Source of the DNA: an uncultured Thermoanaerobaculia bacterium
GTDB lineage: Bacteria; Acidobacteriota; Thermoanaerobaculia; Multivoradales; SZUA-115
NCBI GenBank assembly: GCA_964420075.1
Contig: CAYQRE010000010.1
Coordinates: 77,885-141,884 of the forward strand
Direction of reading: 5' to 3'
DNA: 64,000 nt
Shown here: piece after piece, positions 20,501 through 63,837 of the stretch
Layout: every line of letters begins with the position of its first letter
How positions within the stretch are numbered: position 1 is the first letter of the stretch
The notes under the pieces: model-generated
Told to the model about the DNA's origin: nothing
Databases searched by the model: none
What the model saw: only the letters and a program-made list of their open reading frames with translations
Made by a program: the position numbers and the translations under genes

Positions 20501-23500
20501 GGCGGTCGAGCTCGCCGTAGCTCAGGATGCGGCCCTCGGCGACCAGCGCCACCGCCGCGGGGGTGCGCGCCGCCTGCGCCTCGAAGGGGGCCAGCAGCAG
20601 GCCGGCATCGAGGCCGGCGACGGCCGTGTCGTTCCACTCGGCCGCCAGCTGCTGGCGCTCGCCCGGCGCCAGGAGCGGCAGCTCCCCGAGCGGTAGGCGC
20701 GGGTCCGCCACGGCGGCGGCGAGGAGGCGCGTGAAGGCGCCCGTCCAGCGGTCGACCGTGGTGGCATCGAAGAGGTCGCGGCTGTACTTGGTGACCGCGA
20801 CGAGCCCGTCGCTGGCGGGCTGGAGCGACAGCGCCAAGTCGAAACGGGCGGTGCCGGTGTCGACCTCCTCGGCGATCGCCGTGAGGCCCGGCGGCGGCGT
20901 CACCAGCAGGGGCGCGTTCTGCAGCACCAGCATCACCTGCACGAGTGGCGTGTGGGCGAGGTTGCGCTCCGGCACCAGCTCGTCGACCAAGCGCTCGAAG
21001 GGCACCTCGCGGTCGGCGAGGGCGGCGAGCACCCCCTGGCGGCAGCGGCCGAGGAGGGCGAGGAAGTCGAGGTCCGGCGCCAGCTGGGTGCGCAGGGGCA
21101 GGGTGTTGACGAAGAGGCCGACCATCGCCTCGAGCTCCGGGCGGTCGCGGTTCGCCACCGCCGAGCCGACCACCAGATCCCGCTGGCCAGTGAGCCGGTA
21201 GAGCAGGGCCTGGAAGGCGGCGAGGTAGACCATGAACGGGCTGGCGTCCTGGGCGGCGGCGAGGGCGGCGACGCCGGCGACGAGCGGTGCCGGTAGGGCA
21301 TGCCGGCGATGGCCGCCGCGGAAGCTCTGCTGCGCCGGCCGCGGGCGGTCGGCAGGCAGGCTCACCAGGGGTGGCGCCCCGGCCAGCCGCGCGCGCCAGG
21401 CGGCGAGCTGGGCTACCGCGTGCGGCTCGGCGAGGCGCGCCTGCTGCCAAGCGGCGAAGTCCCCGTAGTCGATCTCGAGGGCGGCGAGGGGCGCGGCCGC
21501 CCCCGCGGCGTTCGTGGCGTAGAGGGCCATCAGCTCGCGCAGCAGCACGCCGAACGACCAGCCATCGCTCACGATGTGATGGGCGGCGACGAGGAGGGCG
21601 TGTTCGTCCTCGCCCAGGCGGGCGACGGCAGCGCGCCAGAGCGGCCCACGAGCGAGCGAGAAGGGCCGGCGCGAACCCTGCCGGAGGACCGCGGCGAGCG
21701 CCTGCGGGCAGCCCTGGAGGTCCACCATCGGGATGGCTGGTCCTCCCGGTGCCGCCGGGGCCACCACCTGCACGGCGGCGCCGGCGTCCACGTGGATCGT
21801 GCTGCGCAGGGCCTCGTGGCGGCACACCAAGCCACGCCAGGCAGCTGCCAGCGGGGCGAGCCGCAGGGGCCCGGCGAGCTGCACCCCGACGCCGAGGTTG
21901 TAGGCCGGGTTGCCGGGATCCAGCTGGTCGAGAAACCACAGGCGGCACTGCGGCGACGACAGCGGCAACGGACGGTCGCGGGGTTGGCGCGGCAGGGGCC
22001 CGGCGGCGGGCGCCGCTGCCGTGGCGAGCCGGGCAGCGAGGGCGGCGAGGGTGGGCGCCGCGAAGAGCTCTGCGAGCGAGACGGCGAGGCCGATGCCTTC
22101 CAGGCGGGCGAGGAGCTGGCTGCCGCGCACCGAGTCCCCACCGAGGGCGAAGAAGCTGTCGGTGGCCCCCACGCTGCCGGCCGGCAGGCTCAAGACCTCC
22201 TCCCAAAGGCGGGCGAGGAGCACCTCCTCGGCGCTGCGCGGCGCGAGCTGCGCCGGCCCGGCGGCGAGGGGGCCGGCGAATTGCCCGACCGCCGGCAGCT
22301 CGCCGGCCAGGAAGAGCTGGCGGCAGGCGCTGCGCTGGACCTTGCCGCTCGTCGTCTTGGGCACGCCGCCGGGCTTGACCAGCACCAGCGTGGCGAGCTC
22401 GATCTCGTGTTCCTCCGCCACCGCCTGGCGGGCGGCGAGCGCCACTTCCTCCGGCACGGCGCGGGCGCGCAGATCGATCTCCTGCACCACCACCAACCGT
22501 TCCTCGCCGGCCGCCTCGACGGCGAAGGCGGCGACGCCACCCGGGCGCATGGCGGGGTGACTGCGCTCGACGCTGGCCTCGATGTCCTGCGGGTAGAGGT
22601 TGCGGCCGCGGATCAGGATCAGGTCCTTGCGGCGGCCGGTGACGAAGAGCTCGCCGCCAGCGAGGATGCCGAGGTCGCCCGTGCGCAGGTAGCTGCCGGG
22701 CTCACCCGCGAGCCGGGCGCCGAAGGCCTCGGCGGTGGCCTCCTCGCGCTGCCAGTAGCCGGCGGCGACCCCGGCCCCGGCCACCCACAGCTCGCCGACG
22801 CTGCCCGGCGGGCACGGCTCGCCGCGCTCCGCGTCCACCACCCGCACGGTGACGCCGCTCGGCATTTGGCCGCTGCTCACCAGCTCGCGCACCGCCGGCG
22901 CCTCGCCCGCCGCGGCGGGCTCCACCCGACCCGCGGCGAGCGCCTCGCTCGCCAGCCGCAGGCGCGCCGGTGAGGCGGCGGCACGAACGCCTGAAACCAG
23001 CAACGTCGCCTCGGCGAGGCCGTAGCAGGGAAAGAATGCCGTGGCCCGAAAGCCGGCACCGGCAAGGGCAGCCGCGAAGCGATCGAGGGTCTCGGCGCGC
23101 ACCGGCTCGGCGCCGTTGAAGGCCACCCGCCAGGCGGCGAGGTCGAGGCCGGCGCAGTCTCCCTCCGTGAGGCGGCGCGCACACAGGTCGTAAGCGAAGT
23201 TCGGTCCGCCGCTCACCGTCGCGCGGTGGCGGTCCACCGCCGCCAACCAACGCGCCGGCCGCTGCAGGAAATGAAGCGGCGACATCAAGATGCAGCGCGC
23301 ACCGAGGAAGAGGGGATGGAGCAAGCCGCCGATCAGGCCCATGTCGTGGTAGAGCGGCAACCAGCTCACCACCACCGTGCGCTCATCGGTGCGGAAGGCC
23401 TCGGCGATCATCCGCTGGTTGGCCAGCAGGTTGCCGTGGGTGACCATCACGCCCTTGGGCTCGCTGGTCGAGCCCGAGGTGTACTGCAAGAAGGCGAGGT

Positions 23501-24107
23501 CCTGCGGCCCGGGCGCCGCCGGGCGCCAGCTGGCCGCCAGCGCGCGGTCGAGGCGATCGGTGGCGAGGCGCGGCAGCGTGGTGGTGGCCGGCCGCTCACG
23601 CCCGAGGCGCTCCCAAGTGCTCTCCAGGCTGGCCGCCGTGAGCACCGCCGCGGGCGCCGCGTCGGCGACGATGGACAGCAAACGCGGCAGGCCGCGGCTG
23701 CCCGTGGGCGGGTAGGCGGGCACCGCCACCAGCCCGGCGTAAAGGCAGCCGAGGAAGCTCACGGCATAGTCGAGGCCGGGAGGCAGCAGGAGCAGCACGC
23801 GCGCCGCCGGCGCCAGCCGCTGCTGGGCGAGCCATGCCGCCACGGCCCGCGCGGCACGATCGAGCTCGCCATAGCTCAGCGCCTGCTCGTCGCCGTCGCC
23901 GTCCGCGAGCCAGACGCAGGCCACGCGCTCCGCATGGGCGCCGGCGCGCCAGCGCAGGAGATCCACCAGAGAGTTGACCTCGGCGGGAGCGCCCTCGGGG
24001 CCGCGGGACGGTGGGCTGCGGGTCTCTGCTGGTCTCGACATCACGCTGCGTTCGCTGGGTCTCTTGCTGGGATCGCTCGGAGTAGGGCCGCCCATGGAGA
24101 CAACCAA
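14565..24107 (-). CDS. Lipoinitiating NRPS: FAAL-ACP-C-A(Ser)-PCP-sulfotransferase-C-A(Gly)-PCP-docking domain
   Basis: FAAL LAFLQYTSGST, WLPLYHDMGLIG, CYGLAEATL, GRRKDLI, KTTSGK with the FAAL-specific insertion. A1 code read as DVWHISLVDK (Ser); A2 DISQLGVVWK (Gly-like). Internal ST motifs; Arg-rich C-terminal docking helix. True start uncertain (ATG 24041, 24095 or 24107). Confidence 0.95.
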   Translation of the reverse strand: MVVSMGGPTPSDPSKRPSERSVMSRPAETRSPPSRGPEGAPAEVNSLVDLLRWRAGAHAERVACVWLADGDGDEQALSYGELDRAARAVAAWLAQQRLAPAARVLLLLPPGLDYAVSFLGCLYAGLVAVPAYPPTGSRGLPRLLSIVADAAPAAVLTAASLESTWERLGRERPATTTLPRLATDRLDRALAASWRPAAPGPQDLAFLQYTSGSTSEPKGVMVTHGNLLANQRMIAEAFRTDERTVVVSWLPLYHDMGLIGGLLHPLFLGARCILMSPLHFLQRPARWLAAVDRHRATVSGGPNFAYDLCARRLTEGDCAGLDLAAWRVAFNGAEPVRAETLDRFAAALAGAGFRATAFFPCYGLAEATLLVSGVRAAASPARLRLASEALAAGRVEPAAAGEAPAVRELVSSGQMPSGVTVRVVDAERGEPCPPGSVGELWVAGAGVAAGYWQREEATAEAFGARLAGEPGSYLRTGDLGILAGGELFVTGRRKDLILIRGRNLYPQDIEASVERSHPAMRPGGVAAFAVEAAGEERLVVVQEIDLRARAVPEEVALAARQAVAEEHEIELATLVLVKPGGVPKTTSGKVQRSACRQLFLAGELPAVGQFAGPLAAGPAQLAPRSAEEVLLARLWEEVLSLPAGSVGATDSFFALGGDSVRGSQLLARLEGIGLAVSLAELFAAPTLAALAARLATAAAPAAGPLPRQPRDRPLPLSSPQCRLWFLDQLDPGNPAYNLGVGVQLAGPLRLAPLAAAWRGLVCRHEALRSTIHVDAGAAVQVVAPAAPGGPAIPMVDLQGCPQALAAVLRQGSRRPFSLARGPLWRAAVARLGEDEHALLVAAHHIVSDGWSFGVLLRELMALYATNAAGAAAPLAALEIDYGDFAAWQQARLAEPHAVAQLAAWRARLAGAPPLVSLPADRPRPAQQSFRGGHRRHALPAPLVAGVAALAAAQDASPFMVYLAAFQALLYRLTGQRDLVVGSAVANRDRPELEAMVGLFVNTLPLRTQLAPDLDFLALLGRCRQGVLAALADREVPFERLVDELVPERNLAHTPLVQVMLVLQNAPLLVTPPPGLTAIAEEVDTGTARFDLALSLQPASDGLVAVTKYSRDLFDATTVDRWTGAFTRLLAAAVADPRLPLGELPLLAPGERQQLAAEWNDTAVAGLDAGLLLAPFEAQAARTPAAVALVAEGRILSYGELDRRANALAHRLRGLGVGPEVVVGVAAERSCELMVALYAVLKAGGAYLPLDPAYPAERLAIMLADGGALLGLTQAALVERLPAGRWLLLDDEAMPAEAAAPPASGLGPENLAYVLFTSGSTGRPKGVMVCHRAIVNRLAWMQAEYGLAAGEAVLQKTPISFDVSVWELFWPLRVGAKLVLARPGGHQDSAYLVELIRAEAVTTLHFVPSMLQVFLADPRAASCRGLRRLIASGEALPRDLVERAAALLPAELHNLYGPTEAAVDVTAWPCGRERAGDGRAVPIGRPISNLRLAVLDRAGRPVALGAAGHLHIAGVGLARGYRGRPGLTAERFVPDPLATPEGAGGRAYATGDLARLRPDGAIDFLGRLDHQVKLRGLRIELGEIEAALDAHPAVRESVVVLRDGRLVAYLVAAGAAPEVATLRSHLAARLPDYMLPAVFVNLPALPLSPSGKVDRRALPAPAEEGAGAVRSWVAPAGAVEERLALLWSAQLGVPAPGAEDDFFALGGDSIQGALLINRLQSELGAIVYVMALFDHPTIRRFAAFLTASYRPALAAAGWLAPALIAHPAADAAAAPRDDAADLAVLTAHLAGRFSPPSAAPAERNPPAVFLLSPFRSGSTLLRVMLAGHPGLFAPPELELLGFTTLGARAQAFAGRDSFGAEGLLRAVMELAGSTAEAAAAWVAAAVARDAPSQELYRQLQAMAAPRLLVDKTPRYALDRATLARAEAWFEAPLYVHLVRHPAATIHSYLEASFDEVYRFPLPARRQAEMVWRLAHANILDHLAGVPAERQHRLCFEELVRSPQRVIEHLCAFLGLDFAPAMLRPYEGRRMTDGLHAAGRMMGDPKFHRYGRIEAAVADRAASNVGELGAASWELAARLGYARAEATGGALAAIPRRGTDGEAGPPLSFGQQRLWFLDRLEPGSSAYNMPAAVHLGGNLAPAALARALAEIERRHAVLRATFGTVAGKPVQRLRPPGRPRLATVDLCGLAAGRREEVASGLLARGARRPFDLARGPLWRLSLLRLAAGEHQLLLNLHHIVCDGWSVALLTRELAALYAAFVAGAPSPLAPLPLDYADFAAWQRAHLAGPAYGELVAYWRRQLAGAPPLLQLPTDRPRPAVETHRGTRLPFRLPPALVAAARVLGSRHGATLFMVLLAALTALLRRLSGETDIAVGAPVAGRNRTEIEGLIGLFMNTLVLRTALPGDPPFADLLAAARQASLAAARHEELPFEKLVEELGVERSLGHAPLFVVMLALQNAPPARLALPGLALERLDLTTDSAKFDLTVDLAEQPDGGLAGSLELNLDLFDRTTIDRFGGQLAALLASAVARPAAPLAQLAALTAAERQQLVVEVNDSAAPLPAAGSVWEWVAATAARDPARQAVRAVGAELSYGALIAQATAWAAELARRGVGPEVAVAICSERTPAMLVAVLAVLAAGGAYVPLDPALPAARLAHMLADSGASLVLAERALAATLDAAGAELAARGGPPPAVAWLEAAPPPAPGPWRSPAHGESVAYVIYTSGSTGRPKGVSVRQRGVLNYLSTMAERPGMTADDVVMAVTTLSFDIAVSELLLPLVVGARIELVRREVVADPRELAAALTVAGATVMQATPTTFGLLLDGGWAGQPGLKVLCGGEPLPRSLADRLLPRVGELWNVYGPTETTVWSTAERLGATPEVSIGRPLANTTVHLAGRHGELAPLGAAGELLIGGEGLARGYHGRAGLAAERFVPDPWGAAGARLYRTGDLARRLADGRLEHLGRRDHQVKIRGFRLELGEIEAVLLAHPAVRQAVVVVHGTGSAARLVAYVVQEAGGDLAWDTLRTYLAETLPPPMVPSLALFLPALPLLPSGKVDRRGLPEPGHERPQLGAAFVSPQSEAERRIAAIWQQVLGVERVGVHDNFFDLGGHSLAAAEVHGRLREEMGSELPLLELFRHPTVQGLARRLQAAAGLDEPLAGQLGGLHERAREEREARERRRRALARRR
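17870..18700 (-). other. Sulfotransferase domain embedded in the NRPS between PCP1 and C2 (boundaries approximate)
   Basis: AVFLLSPFRSGSTLL (5'-phosphosulfate loop), PPEL, VDKTPRY, HLVRHPAATIHS (3'-phosphate binding), FEELVRSPQRVIEHLCAFLGL, GDPKF. Confidence 0.88.
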
Positions 24108-24205
24108 ATGGTGATAAACAAGAGATGCGATTTTGGGCCGAAACGGGACGCTGAAACGCCACCAAAGCGCGCCCGCAAGGGCGAAATAACGAGCGAGCCG
24201 GGACG

Positions 24206-25918
24206 ATGACGAGCACGATCAAGCTGGACCTGACGACGACCTCGGCGACGACCTCGGCGACGATCGTCACCCTGCGGCACCGCGCTCTCGGGCTTCTCGC
24301 CGGCGGCTTGCTGGCCCCCTGCCTGGCGACCCTGGTCTTCGCCGCGATGCCGGCAGCAGGCGACGCGGCTCCAGCCGACAGGCGGGTGAGCACACCGGCC
24401 CCGGCGGGCACCACGCGCATGGTGGGCCGGGTGGGCGAAGCCATCGCCAGCGACCCCGAAGGCCGCCACCTGGTGGCTGCCTGGGAGAGCATCCAGGGCT
24501 TCTGTGGCCCGCCCCTCGGCAAGGACTGCCCACCGCCTTCCCGGCCCGGACTGACCGAGACCGCGTACTCGGCCGACGGCGGGCAGAGCTGGGTGGAGCT
24601 CGGGGCACCGCCGGTGGTCGACGGCGCGATGACCGGCGGCCACCCGTGGCTCGACGTCGGCGGCCGCGACGGCGCCACGTTCTTCCTCGCCAACCGCGCC
24701 CGCGCCCTCGCGCCGGAGCCCGCGGGCTTCGTGCCCGGCGGCCCTGGCCAGGTGGGTATCACCCTCCACCGCGGCCACTTCCAGAATGGCCGGTTCAGCT
24801 GGGACGACGGCAAGCTCCTCGCGCCGGCTGCGGCGGGCGATGTATGGCGCAGCCCGGCGATCGCCGCCGCCAAGGACGGCAGCGGTCGGCTCGTCCTGGC
24901 GATCAGCAACCTGCGGGGGATCTGCGGCTCGCCGGCCCGCTCCGGCGGCCAGATCGAGCTGCTCAGCAGCAGCGACGACGGCGCCACCTGGGAAGGACCG
25001 GTGATCGTCGGCCTCGACACCACGGCCGAGACCAAAGACCCCAAGGACCGCCTGTGCGGCCTCTCCGCCGCTTTTCAGCTGGCCCCCAGCCTGGCCCTGG
25101 GGCCGGAGGGCGAGGTCTACCTGCTGTGGCAGTTCGGGCCCTTCTTCTTCTCGCCCGACCTCTCGAAGATGGCGCCGATGGTCAACGTGCGCTTCGCGCG
25201 CTCGCTCGACGGCGGCAGGACGTGGAGCTATCCGAAGGACCTGGCGCTGCCCAGCTCGTTGCGCCAGGGCCCGCCCGTCGCCTACAGCAAGGACGCGATC
25301 AACGACTTCCCTCGCCTGGCGGTCGCCACGGCCGGGCCGCACCGCGGCCGTCTCTACGTCACCTACGCGAGCACCGTGGCGCCCGTGCTGGCGCCAGCCA
25401 CCAGCCAGACCGTGACGTCGTCGCAGGTCTACCTGCTCACCTCAGACGACCGTGGCAAGACCTGGAGCGACCCCCTGCCCTTGAGCCCCGAGCCACCGCC
25501 CACCGGCCTCAAGCGGCTCTGGCCGACGGTGGCCGTGCTGGCGGACGGCACCGTCGAGGCGATCTATCTCGAAAGCCAGGAACGGCAGGTGACGCCGGCC
25601 GCGGACGACGCCGAGTGCAGCAAGAAGCTCGTCTCCGGCGAGGTGCGCAGCGGCCGCGTGAGCTCGCTCGTGGACCTCTACCGCGTGCGCTCGACCAACG
25701 GCGGCGCGAGCTTCGGCGTGCCCGAGCGGCTCACCTCGACGACCACCAACTGGTGCACGGTGGCGGACGATCCGGTGAGCATCCTGTTCACCAACTTCGG
25801 GGACTACCTCGGTCTCGCTGCGGCGCGGGAGCGGGCCTTCGCCCTCTGGACCGACGGCCGCGGCGGGGTACCCGAGCCCTACTTCCGGGCCCTCGGCCCG
25901 CCGGGAGGCCTGCGATGA
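24206..25918 (+). CDS. Exported BNR/Asp-box repeat (sialidase-fold beta-propeller) protein
   Basis: Signal-like LAGGLLAPCLATLVFAAMPAAG; five Asp-boxes YSADGGQSW, SSDDGATW, RSLDGGRTW, TSDDRGKTW, RSTNGGASF. Start may be downstream of 24206. Confidence 0.82.
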   Translation: MTSTIKLDLTTTSATTSATIVTLRHRALGLLAGGLLAPCLATLVFAAMPAAGDAAPADRRVSTPAPAGTTRMVGRVGEAIASDPEGRHLVAAWESIQGFCGPPLGKDCPPPSRPGLTETAYSADGGQSWVELGAPPVVDGAMTGGHPWLDVGGRDGATFFLANRARALAPEPAGFVPGGPGQVGITLHRGHFQNGRFSWDDGKLLAPAAAGDVWRSPAIAAAKDGSGRLVLAISNLRGICGSPARSGGQIELLSSSDDGATWEGPVIVGLDTTAETKDPKDRLCGLSAAFQLAPSLALGPEGEVYLLWQFGPFFFSPDLSKMAPMVNVRFARSLDGGRTWSYPKDLALPSSLRQGPPVAYSKDAINDFPRLAVATAGPHRGRLYVTYASTVAPVLAPATSQTVTSSQVYLLTSDDRGKTWSDPLPLSPEPPPTGLKRLWPTVAVLADGTVEAIYLESQERQVTPAADDAECSKKLVSGEVRSGRVSSLVDLYRVRSTNGGASFGVPERLTSTTTNWCTVADDPVSILFTNFGDYLGLAAARERAFALWTDGRGGVPEPYFRALGPPGGLR

Positions 25919-27447
25919 GCTCGCCGCGCCACGGCCGCAGCCTCGTGAACCGCCGCGACCTGCTCAAGGGTGCGGCGCTCGCCCTGCCCGCCCTCGCCGC
26001 CTGGCCCCAGCTCGCGGCCCAGGAGACCGCGGCGCCCGCCAGCGGCCCGGCGACCAACCCCGCCGCAGCAGCCGCGCCCCTCGACGTCGTGGTGATCGGC
26101 GGCGGCCTGGCCGGCCTGGCCGCCGCCTTCGAGCTGCGCGCTCGCGGCCATCGGGTGAACCTGCTCGAAGCGCAGTCGCGCCCCGGCGGCCGCGTCTACA
26201 CCCTACGCAGCCCGTTCGCCGACGGGCTCTACGCCGAAGCGGGGGCGATCGGCTTCTCGGACAGCCGCCTGGTCCGCCACTACCTCGGCCGCTTCGGCAT
26301 CACCGCGGTGCCGCTCGGCCGCGGGCCCCTCGCCGCCCTCTACTACCTGCGTGGCAAGCGCCTGGTGGTCAAGCCGGGCGAGAAGATCGACTGGCCTTAC
26401 GCGCTCACCGCCGAAGAGCGCAGCCAGGGAATGGGTGGGCTCTTGCGCAAGCTCATCGTGCCCACCGCGCTCGCCATCGGGGACCCGAGCCGCGAGGGCT
26501 TTGCGCTCGCGCCCCACGCCGCCCTCGACGGCGAGACCTTCGCCGCCTTCCTCACCGTCCAGGGTGCGTCGGCAGAGGCGATCTCGCTGCTGCAGGACAA
26601 CTTGGTGGCCGGTTACGGTTGGGCCACGGGCTCGGCCCTCCATCGCCTGGTCTCCGACTTCGCGCTCTTCTTCGCCGGCAGCGGCATGGCGAGCACTCTC
26701 GAGGGTGGCTCGGAGCGCCTGCCGCTCGCCTTCGCCCGCGAGCTGCGGGCCGAGATCCACTACGGCGCCGCGGTCTCCCGCCTCGAGCAGCAGGGTGAGC
26801 GGCTGCGGGTGGTGTTCCGCCAAGGGGGCGCCGAGCGGGTGGTCGACGCCGACCGCGTGATCGCGGCCGTCCCCGTGCCGGCATTGGCGAGGATCTCCAT
26901 CGAGCCAGCGCTCTCGGCCGCCAAGCGGCAGATCTTCGCCCGCCTGGAGCACACGCCGGTGACCCGCCTCTACCTGCAGACCTCGCGGCGGATCTGGGCC
27001 GAGGCCGGCGTCGGCGGCACCTGCTTCACCGACCTGCCCATCCAGCTGGTGACCGAGCACCCGCTGCTGCCCACGAGCGAGCCCACGCCGCGGGGGATCC
27101 TCGAGGTCCACGTCAAGGGCGAGGAGGCGGCTCGGCTCGACGCGCTCGACGACGAGGCCCGTCTCGAGCGCGTGCTGGTGAGCCTGGAGAAGGTCCACCC
27201 GGGCGTGCGCGGAGTGGTGGAGGGCGTCACCACCATCTCCTGGGGGATGGACCCCTGGGCCGGTGGCGGCTACCCGTGGTGGAAACCGGGTGAGCTCACC
27301 GCCTGGCTGCCGGAGCTCGCCCGCCCCGAGGGCCGCGTCCACTTCGCCGGCGACCAGACCTCGCATCTCGCCCGCACCCTCGAAGGCGCCCTCGAGTCCG
27401 GCGTGCGCGCCGCCCGCGAGATCGACCCGGGGGTGAACGTCGGCTGA
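25915..27447 (+). CDS. TAT-exported flavin monoamine oxidase / L-amino-acid oxidase family protein (510 aa)
   Basis: ATGA overlap with the upstream stop; twin-arginine signal NRRDLLKGAAL; VVVIGGGLAGL, EAQSRPGGRVYT, AEAGA, RVHFAGDQTS, LEGALESGVRAA. Confidence 0.9.
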   Translation: MSSPRHGRSLVNRRDLLKGAALALPALAAWPQLAAQETAAPASGPATNPAAAAAPLDVVVIGGGLAGLAAAFELRARGHRVNLLEAQSRPGGRVYTLRSPFADGLYAEAGAIGFSDSRLVRHYLGRFGITAVPLGRGPLAALYYLRGKRLVVKPGEKIDWPYALTAEERSQGMGGLLRKLIVPTALAIGDPSREGFALAPHAALDGETFAAFLTVQGASAEAISLLQDNLVAGYGWATGSALHRLVSDFALFFAGSGMASTLEGGSERLPLAFARELRAEIHYGAAVSRLEQQGERLRVVFRQGGAERVVDADRVIAAVPVPALARISIEPALSAAKRQIFARLEHTPVTRLYLQTSRRIWAEAGVGGTCFTDLPIQLVTEHPLLPTSEPTPRGILEVHVKGEEAARLDALDDEARLERVLVSLEKVHPGVRGVVEGVTTISWGMDPWAGGGYPWWKPGELTAWLPELARPEGRVHFAGDQTSHLARTLEGALESGVRAAREIDPGVNVG

Positions 27448-27483
27448 GGGGCAGTCGAGATCAACTTTCGCGTAACACCGCAG

Positions 27484-27512
27484 TTGAAATGGTGATCAAA
27501 ATAAACTACGCT
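27484..27512 (+). promoter_or_regulatory. sigma70-type promoter, probably leaderless, for the Cys-rich peptide operon
   Basis: TTGAAA (27484-27489), 17-nt spacer, TACGCT (27507-27512), ATG 7 nt later; no SD; AT-rich patch. Confidence 0.7.
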
Positions 27513-27519
27513 GGCGGCC

Positions 27520-27786
27520 ATGATGAGCAAACTTCGCTCCGAGGGCCGTCGACTTGCTGTTGTCGTGGGCTTCGCCACCTTCTTGGGCCTCTGGGCTCCG
27601 GCGACCAGCCCCGCCGCCGGCGGGGCCTTCTGCGGCTGCCAGGACTGCCACTATCGGACCGTCTTCGGCACCACCTACGGCTTCTGCGTCTTCGCCACGG
27701 ATGGCGCTGAGCACTGCTCGGAGGACGTCTGGGGAGACTGCTGGCTGAGCGGCAACTTCTGCGGCTGCATCGAGGTACGCCCCTGA
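27520..27786 (+). CDS. Small secreted cysteine-rich protein (88 aa; 8 Cys in the predicted mature part)
   Basis: Basic N-terminus, hydrophobic core and Ala-rich cleavage region, then AFCGCQDCHYR...GFC...EHC...GDCWLSGNFCGCIEVRP. Good promoter upstream and GC3-biased codons. Confidence 0.72.
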   Translation: MMSKLRSEGRRLAVVVGFATFLGLWAPATSPAAGGAFCGCQDCHYRTVFGTTYGFCVFATDGAEHCSEDVWGDCWLSGNFCGCIEVRP

Positions 27787-30125
27787 GCCAACGTCTCTGC
27801 CTGCTGGCCGGAGCAGTCCTGCTCCTCGGGGCCGCTGGCCGTCCACCCTCGACCGCGGAGGCCGGATCGCTGACCGTCTCACTGGTGCTGGCCGCGGGAT
27901 GGCCGGATCGCCAGCAGGTACCGGTGGAGGTGCTCGTCGAGCCGGTGGGCACCACCACTGGCGCCAACCCACAGCCTCAGACGTTTCGCGGCATGGCTCC
28001 AGGCACCCTTTCCCTCTCTCTGCCCTCGGGGGTGGCCTGGCACCTCCAGGCGCAAGCAGCCGACGCATGGTCCGCCCCGGCTCTCGTGCTGACAGCGGAG
28101 GAGCGCTCTGCGGCCGATCGACCGACGAGCCCGACTCTCACTCTCTATCCCGCCGGCCTGCTGACGGGAAGAGTTCAGATGCCCGCCGGTGAACCATCGC
28201 CGCGCTCCCTCAGCCTACGCAGCGAGCCCTCGCCGGTCTCCACAGGGAAGCGATCGCCGCGGTTCGACATCACCTGCCCCGTGCAAGACGGCAGCTTCGC
28301 CTGCCGGCTGCGACGCGGCGATCATGACCTCAGCCTACGCACCGAGGGGTTCCTCTCCCACTATCTCTGGGACCTGCAGATCACCGCGAGGGAGCGGCAC
28401 GACTTGGGTACGCTGCGCTTCGAGCGGGGCGCCTCGGTGGTTGGCTGGGTCGCCGCACCGCAGCCACCGTCGGCGGCCGCTCCTTGCGTCGTGGCCCTGC
28501 AGCCCGAAACCGGCGGCTCACCTCGCAGCACCGCCGCCGCAGAGAGGGTCCGCCGCCTTGCGCTCTCCACCCGCGCCGATTCCAGGGGGTTCTTCCAGCT
28601 CCTGGGAGTCCCGGCCGGCTCCTACGAGCTGCGCGCCGAACAGGGTGCCGCCGCCGGCACCATGGCGCACGTCTGGGTGGAGGCCGGCGCCGAGACTCGC
28701 CTGCGCGACTCGCTGGCCCTGCTGCCACCGGTCACTCTCGAGGTGTGGCTCCAGCCGGAGGACGGCCCCTCGGGGGAGCCGTGGCAACTCAGCCTGGTGG
28801 CTGAGGGGCCGCCAGGCCTGCGCTCTCGACGGCCCACCGCCGTCCCCGTGGTAGCCACCGGCGGCTACGCGAAGGTGGCCGCGCTGCGAGCAGGCCGCTA
28901 TGGCCTGCAAGTGCTCGACGCTGCAGGCTCAAGCTACTTGTACCGCTCGCTCGACTTGCGCGAGAACAGCGGGCCCCTTCACTTGGAGCTGCCGCTCGTC
29001 ACGGTAGAGGGGCAGGTGCTCCTCGGGCGAGCGCCCCTCGCCGCCGGTCTCTTCTTTGGTGGCCGACATGGGCGAGAAAGCGTGCGGATGGCGTCCGGCG
29101 ACGACGGGCGCTTCCGGGGCCTGCTGCCACGGGGTGGAGCAGAAGACTCCGGTGTCTGGCCCCTTGAGGTCTTGGCGGAACAACCACCCGTCGGCCGACG
29201 CCTGAGGCTGCCCATCGGTGAACCACGCCGCCCTGGAGAGCCGGTGCGTCTCACCATCCGTCTGCCCAACTCTCGGCTCCGGGGCCAGGTGGTGGACGAG
29301 CAAGGCGAGCCAGCCCTCGGAGCAACGGTCGAGATCACCCGCACCGACGGCGTCGAGCTCGTGCCGGAGATCACCGTCGATGCCTCGGGTCGCTTCGAGT
29401 CGCGGGGCCTCGAGGCCGGTACCTACTCGCTGACTGCGGAGAGTCGATTCGCCACCGCGGACCCGCAGGTGTTGAGCCTCGCCGCGGGGCAGGACTCTGG
29501 AGAGCTGCGCCTCGTCCTGCATCGGCGCCGGGAGCTCTCCGGCATCGTCCTCTCCGCGGAGGGGCCGCTCGCCGGGGCACGAGTGCTCGCAACACCCACC
29601 GTGGGCGGCAGGCCGGCGCCGGTGACCGGAGTCGCCGCCGCGGTGACCACTGTCGATGGTGTGTTTCACCTGCAGCTGCCGGCCTGGGCCAGCGGCGCTC
29701 AGCTCACCCTCCTGGCGCCCGGGTTCGCGCTCTCTCAGTACCGCGTGGACCAGCTGGCCGAGTCTGCGAAGACGCTCCTTGCCTCGCAAGACGGGGGCAC
29801 CTTGATCCTCGATATGCCCCCCGATCTCGCCGGCCCGCGCGCAGATCTTCCACAGCCCGTCGTGTTCCACGATGGCGGGCTAGAGTTGTCCTGGCGCCTC
29901 CTCTGGGAGTGGAGCGCCCTCGGCGGGGCCGGTGACCCGAGTGCGTATCAACTCGTGGTCTCGCCGATCTCCCCGGGCCACTACACACTCTGCCAGTTCG
30001 ACTCTGCCGCCGAGTACTTGCGGGTCGCTGCCGGGTCGACGCCCCCCGCCCAGCGCTGCGCCAGTGGTGACCTCGCCTTGGGCGGTGTGCTGCATCTCCA
30101 GCTCCCCAGCGCTCAGCAAGAGTGA
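27783..30125 (+). CDS. Secreted carboxypeptidase-regulatory-like (prealbumin/Ig-fold) repeat protein
   Basis: Repeats TRADSRGFFQLLGVPAGSYELRA and LRGQVVDEQGEPALGATV...DASGRFESRGLEAGTYSLTA. The frame is open upstream of the tracked GTG (27885) to a CTG at 27783, which overlaps the previous TGA, has GAGGT upstream and adds signal peptide (M)SQRLCLLAGAVLLLGAAG. Confidence 0.75.
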   Translation: MSQRLCLLAGAVLLLGAAGRPPSTAEAGSLTVSLVLAAGWPDRQQVPVEVLVEPVGTTTGANPQPQTFRGMAPGTLSLSLPSGVAWHLQAQAADAWSAPALVLTAEERSAADRPTSPTLTLYPAGLLTGRVQMPAGEPSPRSLSLRSEPSPVSTGKRSPRFDITCPVQDGSFACRLRRGDHDLSLRTEGFLSHYLWDLQITARERHDLGTLRFERGASVVGWVAAPQPPSAAAPCVVALQPETGGSPRSTAAAERVRRLALSTRADSRGFFQLLGVPAGSYELRAEQGAAAGTMAHVWVEAGAETRLRDSLALLPPVTLEVWLQPEDGPSGEPWQLSLVAEGPPGLRSRRPTAVPVVATGGYAKVAALRAGRYGLQVLDAAGSSYLYRSLDLRENSGPLHLELPLVTVEGQVLLGRAPLAAGLFFGGRHGRESVRMASGDDGRFRGLLPRGGAEDSGVWPLEVLAEQPPVGRRLRLPIGEPRRPGEPVRLTIRLPNSRLRGQVVDEQGEPALGATVEITRTDGVELVPEITVDASGRFESRGLEAGTYSLTAESRFATADPQVLSLAAGQDSGELRLVLHRRRELSGIVLSAEGPLAGARVLATPTVGGRPAPVTGVAAAVTTVDGVFHLQLPAWASGAQLTLLAPGFALSQYRVDQLAESAKTLLASQDGGTLILDMPPDLAGPRADLPQPVVFHDGGLELSWRLLWEWSALGGAGDPSAYQLVVSPISPGHYTLCQFDSAAEYLRVAAGSTPPAQRCASGDLALGGVLHLQLPSAQQE

Positions 30126-30128
30126 GGG

Positions 30129-30314
30129 TCACTTCTCCCCGCAGGGGCAAGCCGGGGTGGCGAGGGTCCACTCGACATTGAAGTTGCCGCGGGTGAGGCC
30201 GCGCACCGAGCGGGTGATGGTATTGGCACCGCCGCCGCTGCTCTCGCCACCCTGGGAGATCACCCACGCGCGGGCCGGCCGCGCGCAGCCGATGGTGTGG
30301 GAGATGGGCGGCAC
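30129..30314 (-). CDS. Candidate 61-aa small protein of unknown function
   Basis: GTG start 7 nt after AAGGGG, coding-like GC3 usage over the distal two thirds, upstream sigma70-like promoter; no recognised homology. Confidence 0.4.
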   Translation of the reverse strand: MPPISHTIGCARPARAWVISQGGESSGGGANTITRSVRGLTRGNFNVEWTLATPACPCGEK

Positions 30315-30346
30315 CGAGCCGCCCCTTCTAGTTGAGCCTCTTAGGC

Positions 30347-30375
30347 ATCCTCAGCACAAGAAGGGGCGCTGTCAA
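30347..30375 (-). promoter_or_regulatory. sigma70-type promoter directly downstream of ppiA
   Basis: Minus strand TTGACA (30375-30370), 17 nt, GAGGAT (30352-30347). Confidence 0.55.
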
Positions 30376-30384
30376 GCGCGGTGG

Positions 30385-30960
30385 CTACTTGATCTCGGCC
30401 TTGGTGACGGTGATCGGCTCGACGGGGACGTTCTGGAAATAGCCCCGGTCGCTGGTCTTCACCTTGGCGATCTCGTCGACCACAGCCATGCCATCCACCA
30501 CCCGGCCGAACACAGCGTAGCCCCAGCCGCTGCCGCTCTCCGGCTGGTCGAGGCCGGCGTTGTCCACCAGGTTGACGAAGAACTGCGAGGTGGCGCTGTT
30601 GGGATCGGCGGTGCGCGCCATCGACAGGGTGCCGCGGGCGTTCTTGAGGCCGTTCTTCGCCTCGTTGGGGATCGGCGGCTGGGTTGGCTTCTGCTTCATC
30701 TCGGCCGTGAAGCCGCCGCCCTGGATCACGAAGCCCGGGATCACGCGGTGGAAGATGGTGCCGTTATAGTGCCCGGAGCGCACGTAGGCGAGGAAGTTCT
30801 CGGCGGACTTTGGTGCCTTGTCCTTGAACAGCTCGATGACGATGTCGCCCTTCGTGGTGTGGAAGACGACGGTGGGGTTGGCGGCCGCCGGCGCCGCTGC
30901 GGGCGCCTCGGCGGGCACGGCCAGGGCAGCGAGGAGCAGGAGGGAAGCGCTCAACGACAT
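30385..30960 (-). CDS. ppiA: Periplasmic cyclophilin-type peptidyl-prolyl cis-trans isomerase
   Basis: Signal peptide; APKSAENFLAYV, FHRVIPGFVIQGGG, GTLSMART, ATSQFFVN, GYAVFGRVVDGM. Confidence 0.93.
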   Translation of the reverse strand: MSLSASLLLLAALAVPAEAPAAAPAAANPTVVFHTTKGDIVIELFKDKAPKSAENFLAYVRSGHYNGTIFHRVIPGFVIQGGGFTAEMKQKPTQPPIPNEAKNGLKNARGTLSMARTADPNSATSQFFVNLVDNAGLDQPESGSGWGYAVFGRVVDGMAVVDEIAKVKTSDRGYFQNVPVEPITVTKAEIK

Positions 30961-31056
30961 GGAGAGACCTCCGGGAGTTCAGCTGGTTGGGCAGGTGGGT
31001 GGTCGGTGACCGCTCGCGTCGCTTCGGGCGTGGGCGAGCAACCGAAAGATCCTAGC

Positions 31057-31665
31057 ATGCGGTCTGGCGGGGCCCCGCTGGTCGGTGCCGTGGTCGGCGT
31101 GGTGCTCGCCGGGGGTCAGTCGACGCGGCTGGGGCGCGACAAGGCCCTGCTCCAGCTCGACGGGATGAGCCTGGTGGCGCGCGCCGCGGCCAGCCTCACC
31201 GGCGTGGTGGGCACGGTCGTCGTCGCCGATGCCGGCCGTGGCTACCTCGCGGGGCTGCCCTCCGTGGCGGACGGTCCCGGCCGGGGCCCCGTGGCGGGGT
31301 TGCTGGGAGCGGCCGCAGCCTACCCGGGCCGGCCCCTCCTCGCCCTCGCCTGTGACCTGCCGCGACTGCCTGCCTCGCTCCTCATCGAGCTGGTCGGCCT
31401 GGCCCACCATGATCTCGCCTGGCCCTGCGGCCCGGCCGGGCTCGAGCCGCTCGTCGCCCTCTACGGCCCGGTCGCCCTCGCCGCACTCGCGCGGCAAGTG
31501 GCGGCGGGGCGCTTCGCCCTCCACGGCCTGGCGCGGGCCGCGGGCCTCGATGTCGTGACCTTGACGGGCGAGCAACTGGCGCGGCACGGCGACCCCGGCC
31601 GCATCTTCCTCAACCTCAATCGCGAGGAGGACGTCGCCCGCCTGCCCGAGCTGGCGCCGCCCTAA
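31057..31665 (+). CDS. mobA: Molybdenum cofactor guanylyltransferase
   Basis: VLAGGQSTRLGRDKA, GPVAGL, ACDLP, EPLVALY, FLNLN. Start uncertain (ATG 31057 or GTG 31090). Confidence 0.85.
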   Translation: MRSGGAPLVGAVVGVVLAGGQSTRLGRDKALLQLDGMSLVARAAASLTGVVGTVVVADAGRGYLAGLPSVADGPGRGPVAGLLGAAAAYPGRPLLALACDLPRLPASLLIELVGLAHHDLAWPCGPAGLEPLVALYGPVALAALARQVAAGRFALHGLARAAGLDVVTLTGEQLARHGDPGRIFLNLNREEDVARLPELAPP

Positions 31666-31973
31666 CCGTCCGGCGGCAGGCCCGCCGCGATCTCGCGCAG
31701 GAACTCGTAGCGGTAGATGCCGGTGCCGTGGCCGTCCGAGAAGACGATCGACAGGCCGTAGTTGCCCACCGGCTGGATCGCGGTGATCTCGACCGCCGCC
31801 TGCGGCGGATGGAAGACGATCTCGCTGGCGTTGTGGCCCTGGCAGACGGCACAGGGGCAGAAGCCACGCAGAACGTCGTAGTCCACGGTGTCGACGGCGC
31901 CGTCGGTCCAGGTCAGCCGCAGCTGGCGCTCGACGGGCAGGCGGCGCGCTTCGGTCAGGTAGAGGGGTGGCAT
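31662..31973 (-). CDS. DUF971 / gamma-butyrobetaine hydroxylase N-terminal-like protein
   Basis: LRGFCPCAVC and VGNYGLSIVFSDGHGTGIY motifs. Confidence 0.85.
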   Translation of the reverse strand: MPPLYLTEARRLPVERQLRLTWTDGAVDTVDYDVLRGFCPCAVCQGHNASEIVFHPPQAAVEITAIQPVGNYGLSIVFSDGHGTGIYRYEFLREIAAGLPPDG

Positions 31974-32078
31974 GGGCGAGCGGTCTCGGGCGTAAGAGTG
32001 GACCGGCCGATGCTACCATCGGGGTGGCATCCACCTGCGCGGGCCCCCCCCGCCAGCAGACCCCTCAAGGAGAGCCCC

Positions 32079-32765
32079 ATGACCCTTCACAAAGCACGTT
32101 CGCCGCGTCCCGGCTGGCGCCTTCTCGCGCTCCTCGCGTTGATCCTGAGCGTGGCCACGCTCGTCCATCCGGCCCAGGCACAGCCACGCCAGTTCGAGCT
32201 CACTCCCACCGTCGGCTATCGCTTCTTCGGTGACCTCGAGGTGGACGACACCGAGTTCCTCGGCGCGAGCACCGACGTCGAGGACGGTGCGGCCTACGGC
32301 TTGAGCTTCGACATCCCGCTCACCTCGATCCTGAAGCTCGAGCTTCTCGCCAATCACCAGACGACGGACCTGACGGTCGACAACGGCCTGTTCTCGCACG
32401 CCTCCCACGTCGCCGATCTCGACATCGACTACTACCACGTGGGCCTGCTGGTGCAATTCGGCTCCGGCCAGGTGCGGCCGTTCTTCGTGGGCAGCCTCGG
32501 CCTCGCCCGCCTCGATGCCGACTTCGGCGCCGGTGTGCGCGAGAGCGAGGACCGGCCCTCGGCGAGCCTCGGCGGCGGCGTCAAGGTGTTCTTCAGCGAG
32601 CACGTGGGCCTGCGCTTCGAGGGTCGCGCCTACGCCGTGGCGCTCGACGACGACAACAACGACAACCACCGCGATCGGGATCGCGACCGTGACCGCGACC
32701 GTTGGGACAACGAGGACTCGCTGGTGCAGAGCGAGGCCTCGATCGGTCTGATCTTCGCCTGGTAG
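32079..32765 (+). CDS. Outer-membrane beta-barrel protein
   Basis: AAGGAG SD, signal peptide ending AQA, amphipathic strands (FELTPTVGYRF, GGGVKVFF, GLRFEGR), C-terminal IGLIFAW. Confidence 0.8.
   Translation: MTLHKARSPRPGWRLLALLALILSVATLVHPAQAQPRQFELTPTVGYRFFGDLEVDDTEFLGASTDVEDGAAYGLSFDIPLTSILKLELLANHQTTDLTVDNGLFSHASHVADLDIDYYHVGLLVQFGSGQVRPFFVGSLGLARLDADFGAGVRESEDRPSASLGGGVKVFFSEHVGLRFEGRAYAVALDDDNNDNHRDRDRDRDRDRWDNEDSLVQSEASIGLIFAW
32646..32703 (+). repeat. Low-complexity D/N and (RD)n tract inside the beta-barrel gene
   Basis: Encodes DDDNNDNHRDRDRDRDRDR before the last strand. Confidence 0.7.
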
Positions 32766-32823
32766 GGCCACCTGCCTGCGCCGCCTGGTCGCCGCCGGCG
32801 GCGCAAGCTAGGATCGCCCCACC

Positions 32824-34290
<1,467 letters not shown>

Positions 34291-63557: not shown

Positions 63558-63647
<90 letters not shown>

Positions 63648-63747: not shown

Positions 63748-63837
<90 letters not shown>

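What the first reader, a model, noticed from the sequence alone, without database searches (positions are those of the whole stretch)
27484..30125. Leaderless 8-cysteine secreted mini-protein coupled to a large carboxypeptidase-regulatory-like protein
Seen: a textbook-spaced promoter, ATG at the predicted start site, a signal peptide, and a roughly 52-aa mature region bracketed by FCGC at both ends with 8 Cys. The next gene overlaps the stop and carries its own signal peptide. Codons look less GC3-biased than the NRPS genes (visual impression only). No RiPP-modifying enzyme is adjacent. Inference: a disulfide-rich bacterial mini-protein (defensin/knottin-like toxin, inhibitor or ligand) with a dedicated surface scaffold, chaperone or immunity partner. 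This two-gene module would be missed by most annotation pipelines.
Basis: partly seen in the sequence, partly recalled or inferred. Interest (0 to 1): 0.7.

Follow-up and report, generated by a model that had tools for sequence, protein, structure and literature searches.

The report
Cysteine-rich mini-protein coupled to beta-sandwich carrier
A small exported protein with eight cysteines and the large exported protein encoded right behind it form a real gene pair that recurs, always together, in a few uncultured Acidobacteria-type bacteria; it matches no published system and what it does is unknown.

Summary
Window 27520-27786 encodes an 88-aa precursor with a signal peptide and an acidic mature part of about 52 aa carrying 8 Cys. 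Its 3' end overlaps an 804-codon open frame for a secreted protein of about eight beta-sandwich domains (three Pfam CarboxypepD_reg matches).

The mini-protein family is tiny, about nine distinct sequences among 5.8 billion proteins. All Cys are conserved in the close subfamily, and a core C-x2-C...C-x9-C...C runs through all. The two genes lie side by side in 9 of the 11 loci read (8 of 10 counted by distinct sequence). In eight the mini-gene comes first: seven overlap by 4-31 nt and one leaves a 7-nt gap. In one locus the mini-gene lies 25 nt behind the large gene.

Three points need correcting:
- The mRNA is probably not leaderless.
- Public gene calls do not miss the mini-gene. They miscall the large gene's start, which must be a CTG (27765, homologous to the relatives' ATG, or 27783).
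- The peptide is not defensin-like: it has no CxxxC and its pI is about 4.4.

Best reading: a co-translated, co-exported, non-enzymatic complex of a variable disulfide-locked ligand or cap and a constant carrier. Function unknown. Earlier reports of this scan describe the same kind of cassette; I found nothing about it in print.

The parts
27484..27512 (+). Putative promoter hexamers TTGAAA-17 nt-TACGCT in the 72-nt AT-richer spacer after the amine-oxidase gene. Unverified.
   Evidence: Read from the sequence. 8 of 12 consensus positions match, and the -10 only 3 of 6. The promoter scan gives 0 sites. RNA-labelled contigs extend upstream of it.
27520..27786 (+). Mini-protein gene: 88-aa precursor (87 aa if started at the second ATG, 27523), with a Sec-type signal peptide (about 27520-27618) and a mature 8-Cys domain (about 27619-27783).
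   Evidence: Homologues P0013 (E=6.8e-9) and P0014 came from a full HMMER search of 1.84e9 representatives. Further members came from the profile search. The gene is identical on 10 metagenome contigs.
27765..30125 (+). Large partner gene: 786 aa if started at CTG 27765, the position homologous to the ATG of the relatives. It encodes a signal peptide and about eight beta-sandwich domains with two conserved disulfide pairs (C171/C180 and C743/C765).
   Evidence: Open frame runs 27711-30125, with the first canonical start only at 27885. Junction in the relatives reads 'tgc ggA TGy atc' where the window reads 'tgc ggC TGc atc'. N-terminal alignment. Pfam. AlphaFold2 model with pLDDT 80 and pTM 0.63, all-beta.
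27772..27785 (+). Alternative start: Shine-Dalgarno-like GAGGT (27772-76), 6 nt, then CTG 27783, which forms CTGA with the mini-gene stop. This gives a 780-aa product.
Evidence: Read from the sequence. Which of the two CTG codons is used was not decided here.
27627..27639 (+). First copy of the 13-nt direct repeat CTTCTGCGGCTGC (the FCGC codons). The second copy is at 27756-27768 and contains CTG 27765.
   Evidence: Read from the sequence.

Best explanation
This is a self-contained extracytoplasmic two-gene cassette.

Shown:
- The mini-gene and the large gene are adjacent on the same strand wherever a mini-gene was found. In most loci the large gene's start lies inside the last codons of the mini-gene.
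- Both products carry Sec-type signal peptides.
- The large product is a non-enzymatic array of about eight beta-sandwich domains.
- The mini-protein is a roughly 50-aa acidic, aromatic-rich domain with a conserved six-Cys core plus one variable extra pair.

Inferred:
- The two genes are probably transcribed together. This is not shown.
- Ribosomes finishing the mini-gene re-initiate on the large gene (translational coupling). In this genome that happens at a weak CTG, so the carrier would be made in smaller amounts than the mini-protein.
- After export and disulfide formation, the mini-protein docks on the carrier. The docking site is probably the variable N-terminal domain D1.
- The pair acts as a binding or recognition module of the envelope or cell surface, with the mini-protein as the variable ligand or cap and the array as the constant carrier.
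- Some relatives add a periplasmic PDZ protein that may hold the aromatic C-terminus of the mini-protein. This window has no such gene.
- In this genome the cassette looks horizontally acquired (GC3 0.80-0.84 against about 0.92) and evolves fast.
For: Family and Cys conservation:
-.
- Subfamily 1 motif: C-x(1,2)-C-x2-C-x(10-12)-C-x3-[DE]GAE[HY]C-x2-D[IV]WG-x-CW-x-[YS]G-x-[FY]CGCI-x-V.
- Shared core in all members: C-x2-C-x(8-15)-C-x9-C-x(7-14)-C.

Adjacency:
- Mini-gene directly before the large gene in the window, L011, L012, L013, L014, L015, L020 and L022. Overlaps are 4-31 nt in seven of these; L011 has a 7-nt gap.
- Mini-gene directly after the large gene in L016.
- Flanking genes otherwise differ between loci.

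Co-inheritance: mini and large pairwise identities correlate (Mantel r=0.62, exact p=0.011).

Start codon: the large gene's start sits in the CGC codons of the mini-gene. It is ATG in L014, L015 and L020, and CTG here because of a synonymous GGA-to-GGC change.

Export of the large protein: the homologous N-terminal signal peptides align, and two Cys pairs are invariant.

No catalytic domain was found:
- Pfam, NCBIfam and PADLOC give only beta-sandwich domains.
- Foldseek finds only Ig-like arrays: the Bacillus anthracis TIE protein, Gram-positive pilins, and CD109/C3 MG domains.

D1 as docking site: the only complete large protein without an adjacent mini-gene (L017) lacks the N-terminal domain D1.

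Fast evolution: between strain variants the cassette has 13 non-synonymous and 3 synonymous differences, against 12 and 14 in the flanking genes (Fisher p=0.05).

Composition.

Possible transcription in situ: short contigs over the mini-gene in RNA-labelled runs, with depth similar to the tmRNA contigs of the same run.
Against: - No physical interaction was tested; no multimer prediction was available.
- The mini-protein model is poor (pLDDT 60), so its fold and disulfide map are unknown.
- The D1-docking idea rests on one locus.
- Two loci, L017 and L018, have the large gene without an adjacent mini-gene. In L018 the upstream side is cut by the contig end.
- The CTG start and the excess of non-synonymous changes could instead mean that the cassette is decaying in this genome.
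- The RNA-labelled runs are patchy contigs and may contain DNA.
Confidence: 0.5

Rival explanations
1. Secreted antimicrobial or toxic peptide, with the large protein as carrier, delivery vehicle or self-protection factor.
For: Small, Sec-exported, multi-disulfide, fast-evolving, patchily distributed, with HGT-like composition. A C-terminal CxC and a GxC are present in subfamily 1.
Against: All 11 members are acidic (pI 4.1-4.8, net charge -3 to -8) and fail the cis-defensin pattern; none has the CxxxC helix staple. No exporter, maturation protease or membrane immunity gene is conserved nearby. The large protein has no toxin or enzyme domain.
Confidence: 0.12
2. The two proteins are only co-regulated envelope proteins. 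The overlap reflects compact operon structure, not a complex.
For: Overlapping starts are common in compact operons. The order is inverted in L016, and L017 and L018 lack an adjacent mini-gene.
Against: The pairing holds across sequences only 21-45% identical, in otherwise unrelated contexts. The mini-gene is never seen without the large gene. The two diverge in parallel.
Confidence: 0.15
3. In this genome the cassette is a horizontally acquired remnant on its way out. The large gene lost its ATG and both genes drift under relaxed constraint.
For: ATG replaced by CTG. Non-synonymous to synonymous counts are 13:3 in the cassette against 12:14 in the flanks. Low GC3.
Against: Both frames are intact over 88 and 786 codons. 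Every family-invariant residue and all Cys are retained. A new SD-like GAGGT sits before CTG 27783. The sequence is identical in many samples collected over years. The mini-gene region is present in RNA-labelled runs.
Confidence: 0.15
4. The mini-protein is a metal- or cofactor-bearing small subunit. One version: a Cys/Trp-derived quinone or metal cluster matured by the neighbouring Tat flavin amine oxidase and Asp-box propeller.
For: Invariant Trp, His, Asp and Glu in subfamily 1 (DGAEHC..D[IV]WG.CW). CxxCxxC in the relatives and CQDCH in the window. A flavin amine oxidase and a BNR propeller lie directly upstream.
Against: The oxidase is not found next to the cassette in any other locus, and a BNR protein occurs in only one other. 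CXXCH and the His are not conserved across subfamilies. The signal peptides are Sec-type in most members, so folding is periplasmic and oxidising.
Confidence: 0.05
5. RiPP precursor whose core is modified by enzymes encoded elsewhere.
For: Small and Cys-rich. One subfamily-2 locus (L021) has a DUF692/MbnB gene, a B12-radical-SAM gene and a methyltransferase gene 1-7 kb upstream.
Against: That cluster is separated from the cassette by opposite-strand genes and is absent from all other loci. The leader is an ordinary signal peptide.
Confidence: 0.02

Closest known systems
Bacterial cis-defensins (CS-alpha-beta peptides, e.g. xanthusin-1; five classes in PMC11561630)
   Same: Signal peptide, a mature part of about 50 aa, 3-4 disulfides, a GxC element and (in subfamily 1) a C-terminal CxC. 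Found in Myxococcota and, rarely, Acidobacteria.
   Different: No CxxxC helix staple. The published Cys pattern fails in 11 of 11 members. Acidic instead of cationic. No detectable sequence or fold match. Always paired with a large partner gene.
Tandem transthyretin-like/CarboxypepD_reg arrays, e.g. eukaryotic NOMO of the BOS complex (PDB 9c7v)
   Same: The large protein is a chain of the same kind of beta-sandwich domains. Best PDB sequence match is NOMO2, E=5.7e-10 over one domain. PF13620 is met.
   Different: No membrane anchor and no partners like NCLN or TMEM147. Only one domain matches by sequence. Bacterial and periplasmic or secreted.
Gram-positive pilins, the Bacillus anthracis TIE protein, and MG-domain proteins (alpha-2-macroglobulin, CD109, C3)
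   Same: Top Foldseek matches; multi-domain Ig-like arrays.
   Different: TM-scores are only about 0.1. No CxEQ thioester motif is possible, because the mature protein has only five Cys, none in that context. No sortase-type C-terminal sorting signal is visible at the C-terminus.
DegS-type PDZ recognition of aromatic C-termini
   Same: In subfamily 2 a small periplasmic PDZ protein gene follows the large gene, and those mini-proteins end in -CAY or -CSF.
   Different: This window has no such PDZ gene and its mini-protein ends in -EVRP. No protease domain is attached to the PDZ protein.
Colicin-type toxin/immunity gene pairs
   Same: A small acidic protein gene tightly coupled to a large secreted protein gene.
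   Different: Here the small protein is exported and Cys-rich, it precedes the large gene, and the large protein has no cytotoxic domain.

Membership tests
Bacterial cis-defensins (CS-alpha-beta) | Cys pattern C-X(2,18)-C-X3-C-X(2,12)-C-X(4,17)-C-X-C, including the CxxxC helix staple (PMC11561630, Methods) | tested here: not met
   The regex fails in 11 of 11 mature sequences, and no CxxxC occurs anywhere.
Bacterial cis-defensins (CS-alpha-beta) | Signal peptide and no transmembrane segment | tested here: met
   n/h/c layout read from the sequences of 9 members. No SignalP or Phobius run was possible.
Bacterial cis-defensins (CS-alpha-beta) | Helix tied to a beta-sheet by parallel disulfides | tested here: inconclusive
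   The AlphaFold2 model has pLDDT 60. It is mostly beta with one 5-residue helix, and has no Foldseek match below E=1.
Inhibitor cystine knot (knottin) | Disulfide connectivity I-IV, II-V, III-VI with a threaded ring | not testable with these tools
   No reliable model, and model coordinates could not be read.
CarboxypepD_reg (Pfam PF13620) domain proteins | Score above the Pfam gathering threshold | tested here: met
   93.2 bits against a cut-off of 32.3, in 3 stretches.
Alpha-2-macroglobulin/TIE thioester proteins | Cys-Gln thioester motif (CxEQ) in a thioester domain | tested here: not met
   The six Cys of the large protein are C12 (signal peptide), C171, C180, C241, C743 and C765, and none lies in such a motif. 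No Pfam A2M or TED match.
RiPP precursor | A modifying enzyme conserved in the gene neighbourhood | tested here: not met
   No enzyme is shared among the loci. The rSAM/DUF692 genes occur near L021 only.
Leaderless mRNA | Transcription start at, or within a few nt of, the start codon, with no Shine-Dalgarno site | tested here: inconclusive
   No TSS data exist. Contigs from RNA-labelled runs span 27410-27596. There is a weak GGCGG 5 nt before the second ATG. The relatives have strong SD sites.
Cys-rich mini-protein / eight-domain carrier (/PDZ) cassette of this scan's earlier notes (unpublished) | Exported Cys-rich mini-gene coupled to a carrier of about eight beta-sandwich domains; an optional PDZ gene follows | tested here: met
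   Mini-gene plus carrier shown in 9 loci, with a PDZ gene in L012, L013, L017 and L022. Sequence relatedness to the cassettes in those notes was not tested.

The most novel reading that the evidence does not exclude
The cassette is one type within an undescribed class of exported two-component modules of Acidobacteriota and relatives. A constant carrier of about eight transthyretin-like domains presents an interchangeable, fast-evolving, acidic, disulfide-locked mini-protein as a polymorphic specificity determinant, for example in cell-cell or kin recognition, adhesion to a particular surface, or a phage decoy. The carrier's N-terminal domain would be the docking site. Translational coupling through a start codon buried in the mini-protein's last codons would set the ratio of the two proteins.
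Probability: 0.2. Interest if true: 0.75.

Novelty: new variant of a known kind. Interest (0 to 1): 0.5.

Why it matters
Disulfide-rich mini-proteins are well known in eukaryotes as toxins, inhibitors and ligands. They are poorly charted in bacteria, where only the defensin-like peptides have been classified. This is a bacterial mini-protein family unrelated to those. It is acidic and aromatic-rich, and it has an obligate large partner whose start codon is embedded in the mini-protein's conserved C-terminal codons. If the two proteins form a complex, it would be a new, compact and testable model of a variable ligand on a constant carrier in the envelope of uncultured Acidobacteria. It would also be a possible source of stable mini-protein scaffolds.

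The case has a practical annotation lesson. A synonymous change in one gene (GGA to GGC) removed the ATG of the overlapping gene. Gene callers then truncated the partner by 53 residues and dropped its signal peptide.

Tried and rejected
There was therefore no search of the rest of this genome or of relatives, and no test for an empty site.
- Genome contigs with the mini-protein profile found nothing. The six-sequence large-protein alignment was too divergent to search with. The three-sequence one gave only three Thermoanaerobaculia/Holophagales MAG loci.
- Viral contigs gave no relatives of either protein.
- Pfam, NCBIfam and PADLOC gave nothing for the mini-protein. PHROGs was not run. A PDB sequence search with the mini-protein profile gave only noise.
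- The AlphaFold2 model of the mini-protein was too poor to use. Model coordinates are not readable in the Python box, so I did no disulfide or domain-packing analysis.
- A fusion of the two proteins by frameshifting was considered and rejected. There is no slippery heptamer in 27750-27790, and a second signal peptide would end up internal.
- A Tat signal for the mini-protein (GRRLAVV) was rejected, because the relatives have KR, KK or QR.
- A c-type haem site (CQDCH) was rejected as not conserved.
- A functional link to the upstream amine oxidase and BNR propeller was rejected as not conserved.
- Comparing depth with the tmRNA in the RNA-labelled runs could not establish that those runs are clean RNA.
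- Literature searches found no description of the pair.
Full report
**1. What is in the sequence**

The 72-nt spacer after a Tat-type flavin amine-oxidase gene (stop at 27447) is followed by ORF 27520..27786 on the + strand (88 aa). Its product has three parts:
- a charged n-region (MMSKLRSEGRR);
- a 15-residue hydrophobic core;
- after PATSPAAG, a mature part of about 52-55 residues with 8 Cys (FCGC-QDC-...-FC-...-HC-...-DC-...-FCGC).

The frame of the next gene is open from 27711 to 30125, but its first ATG, GTG or TTG is at 27885. Translated from upstream of that point it begins with a typical signal peptide: LHRGTPLSQRLCLLAGAVLLLGAAGRPPSTAEA|GS.

Pfam finds three CarboxypepD_reg domains (PF13620, 93 bits) and weaker hits to related beta-sandwich families.

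The -10 matches only 3 of 6 positions, and the consensus scan reports no promoter-like site.

GC3 is 0.84 for the mini-gene and 0.80 for the large gene. Adjacent genes have 0.89-0.94 and the NRPS genes 0.91-0.93.

**2. The mini-gene is real and belongs to a very small family**

The exact 87-aa product is already a called gene on 14 public contigs (NCBI, ENA, Logan), all from activated-sludge or wastewater metagenomes.

A full HMMER pass over 1.84 billion representative proteins found only two relatives:
- P0013, E=6.8e-9
- P0014, E=2.2e-4

A profile search over 5.8 billion proteins and one metagenome scan added P0015/L020, P0016, P0018 and P0019.

In the close subfamily all 8 Cys and a long motif are conserved:
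C-x(1,2)-C-x2-C-x(10-12)-C-x3-[DE]GAE[HY]C-x2-D[IV]WG-x-CW-x-[YS]G-x-[FY]CGCI-x-V

Across all subfamilies a core C-x2-C-x(8-15)-C-x9-C-x(7-14)-C persists. One extra Cys pair changes position, and it is absent in L016.

All members are acidic (pI 4.1-4.8) and rich in aromatic residues.

No Pfam, NCBIfam, PADLOC or PDB sequence match exists.

**3. The partner is obligate**

I first searched with the large protein. Its three best distant homologues (27-30% identity, full length) each turned out to have a small signal-peptide-plus-8-Cys ORF directly in front (L011, L012, L013).

The reverse search gave the same result. Each mini-protein homologue whose flanks could be read is followed by a large homologue of 717-800 aa: L014, L015 and L020 directly, and L022 as two adjacent calls of 250 and 442 aa.

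In one Thermoanaerobaculia MAG (L016) the order is inverted: the mini-gene starts 25 nt after the large gene.

Two loci lack an adjacent mini-gene:
- L017, a Thermoanaerobaculia MAG;
- L018, a Holophagales MAG, cut at the contig end on the upstream side.

Flanking genes otherwise differ from locus to locus, so the pair is the unit.

Pairwise identities of the mini-proteins and of the large proteins correlate (Mantel r=0.62, exact p=0.011, 7 loci). This fits inheritance of the two genes as a pair.

Subfamily 2 (L012, L013, L022) and L017 add a roughly 230-aa periplasmic PDZ protein gene right after the large gene. The window has none.

Neither protein has relatives in viral contigs.

**4. Gene overlap and the start of the large gene**

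| Locus | Junction or start | Overlap or gap |
|---|---|---|
| L014, L015, L020 | 'tgc ggA TGy atc gtc gtc tac tRR'; the large gene's ATG (M-[YH]-R-R-L-L...) lies inside the Gly-Cys codons of the conserved CGC | 19-nt overlap |
| L012, L022 | GTG | 31-nt overlap |
| L013 | GTG 841 (my reading; the gene caller's ATG 889 cuts off the signal peptide) | 13-nt overlap |
| L011 | ATG | 7-nt gap |

The window reads 'tgc ggC TGc atc gag gta cgc ccc tga'. A synonymous GGA-to-GGC change in the mini-gene turns the homologous ATG into CTG (27765). The N-terminal alignment (L-H-R-G-T... against M-H-R-R-L... and M-R-R-H-G-T...) supports this position.

A second candidate is CTG 27783. It forms CTGA with the stop and is preceded at 6 nt by GAGGT. 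That GAGGT is created by the window-specific Ile-Glu-Val codons, where the relatives have Ile-Val-Val. Another first-reader note proposed the same start (e1-5105049).

Either way the large protein needs a CTG start to keep the signal peptide that all its homologues have. Public gene calls start it at GTG 27924 (733 aa) and lose the signal peptide. All eleven near-identical contigs carry the same junction.

**5. 'Leaderless' is not supported**

- The relatives have strong Shine-Dalgarno sites before their mini-genes: AAGGAG, AGGAGA, AAGGA and GGGAGG.
- In the window a weak GGCGG lies 5 nt before the second ATG.
- Four wastewater runs labelled RNA-seq hold short contigs on the locus. Two of them span 27410-27564 and 27447-27596, that is, across the proposed promoter and start.
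- Their depth over the mini-gene (14-24) resembles that of the tmRNA contigs of the same organism in the same runs (12-19).
- Coverage is patchy and DNA carry-over cannot be excluded. I take this as weak evidence for transcription and weak evidence against a start at the ATG.
- The A-to-G change at 27737 seen in these runs is the D73G allele of strain variant L019, not RNA editing.

**6. The large protein**

- AlphaFold2 with ten homologues gives a confident all-beta model (pLDDT 80, pTM 0.63) with about eight sandwich domains after the signal helix.
- Foldseek against the PDB returns only generic Ig-like arrays, at TM-scores near 0.1: the Bacillus anthracis TIE protein, Gram-positive pilins, SpyCEP, CD109, A2ML1, C3 and ushers.
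- The best PDB sequence match is one domain of NOMO2.
- No catalytic, toxin, thioester, anchor or barrel domain was found.
- Two Cys pairs (C171/C180 and C743/C765) are conserved, as expected for an exported protein.
- The N-terminal 120 residues (D1) are the most variable part.
- L017, the only complete large protein without a neighbouring mini-gene, lacks D1.

**7. Evolution within the population**

Two strain variants (L019 and L002, 99.3-99.7% identical over 6-10 kb) differ from the window as follows.

| Region (window against L019) | Non-synonymous | Synonymous |
|---|---|---|
| Mini-gene | 3 | 0 |
| Large gene | 10 | 3 |
| Three flanking genes together | 12 | 14 |

Fisher's test gives p=0.05. 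None of the changes touches a Cys. Both diversifying selection on an exposed pair and relaxed constraint fit. The numbers are too small to decide between them.

In the other loci the cassette's G+C is close to the local background. In the window its lower GC3 suggests acquisition from a relative with less G+C.

**8. Interpretation**

Shown:
- a conserved pair of genes for exported proteins, overlapping in most loci;
- a new Cys-rich mini-protein family;
- a non-enzymatic multi-sandwich partner;
- no conserved modifying enzyme or transporter.

Inferred:
- translational coupling, with sub-stoichiometric carrier here because of the CTG start;
- a periplasmic or surface complex with the mini-protein docked on D1;
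- a binding or recognition role.

I put 0.5 on this reading. The rivals and their weights are:
- toxin or antimicrobial peptide with a carrier, 0.12. The acidic charge and the failure of the defensin pattern of PMC11561630 count against it.
- mere co-regulation, 0.15.
- a decaying acquired remnant in this genome, 0.15. This is compatible with the family being functional elsewhere.
- a cofactor or metal subunit, 0.05.
- a RiPP precursor, 0.02.

**9. Relation to earlier notes of this scan**

Notes e1-1527519, e1-935036, e1-1239105 and e1-3248130 describe, in other genomes, cassettes of a Cys-rich exported mini-protein, a carrier of about eight beta-sandwich domains and often a PDZ protein. They also found no published description. 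They are unverified AI notes. I reached the pairing and the PDZ association from my own searches before reading them, so they agree with this report but do not support it independently. I did not test whether their cassettes are sequence relatives of this one.

**10. Verdict**

The core of the interpretation (a dedicated partner) is right. Three details are wrong: leaderless, defensin-like, and missed by pipelines. I found nothing about the pair in the literature. It has been noted repeatedly within this scan, and its function is still unknown. Interest 0.5.

Noticed in passing
window 27627-27639 and 27756-27768: Exact 13-nt direct repeat CTTCTGCGGCTGC encoding the two FCGC motifs, 129 nt apart. 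The second copy contains the CTG that replaces the relatives' ATG start of the large gene. The N-terminal FCGC is specific to this genome.
   Followed up: partly
window 24106-24115 and 27487-27496: The AT-rich 10-mer AAATGGTGAT, followed by TAAAC at once in one copy and after 5 nt in the other, occurs in only two places in the window. One is upstream of the propeller/oxidase pair and the other upstream of the mini-gene. 3 of 100 shuffles give 2 or more matches. It may be a shared regulatory site.
   Followed up: partly
window 23520-29963 against L019; window 23330-33252 against L002: Strain variants at 99.3-99.7% identity show mostly non-synonymous differences in the cassette (13 N : 3 S), against 12 N : 14 S in the flanking genes (Fisher p=0.05).
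   Followed up: partly
L015 5782-6309: In this relative a deletion, judged against L014 and L020, removed the 456/488-aa upstream gene and the mini-gene's signal peptide. The intact 8-Cys domain is left fused to an HTH-gene reading frame.
   Followed up: partly
L021 1213-6327: A DUF692/MbnB_TglH_ChrH gene, a B12-binding radical-SAM gene and a methyltransferase gene lie 1-7 kb upstream of a subfamily-2 cassette. They look like a separate RiPP-like cluster, divided from the cassette by opposite-strand genes, and are not seen in other loci.
   Followed up: no
L015 5046-5345: Another, unrelated 99-aa secreted ORF with 10 Cys lies about 0.7 kb upstream of the cassette.
   Followed up: no
L022 1123-3278: The large gene of this subfamily-2 locus is called as two pieces (250 and 442 aa). 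This is either a frameshift or stop (decay) or an assembly error.
   Followed up: no
L014 2019-3389 and L020 2492-3958: A conserved 456/488-aa protein (78% identical between the two loci; weak MalT-like TPR hit, Cys-containing N-terminus) lies directly upstream of the cassette in two relatives. It may be a regulator. It is absent from the window.
   Followed up: partly
window 24206-25918 and L015 8886-11642: An Asp-box/BNR propeller protein lies next to the cassette in two of the loci, upstream in the window and downstream in L015 (26% identity over 330 aa, E=1.5e-7). It is absent from L020, a close relative of L015.
   Followed up: partly
window 47129-47484; 63561-63647; 63751-63837: A tmRNA gene (174 bits) and two tRNA genes.
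   Followed up: no
window 27649-27663: The window's mini-protein contains CQDCH, a CXXCH haem-binding-type motif. It is not conserved in any relative and is probably coincidental.
   Followed up: yes
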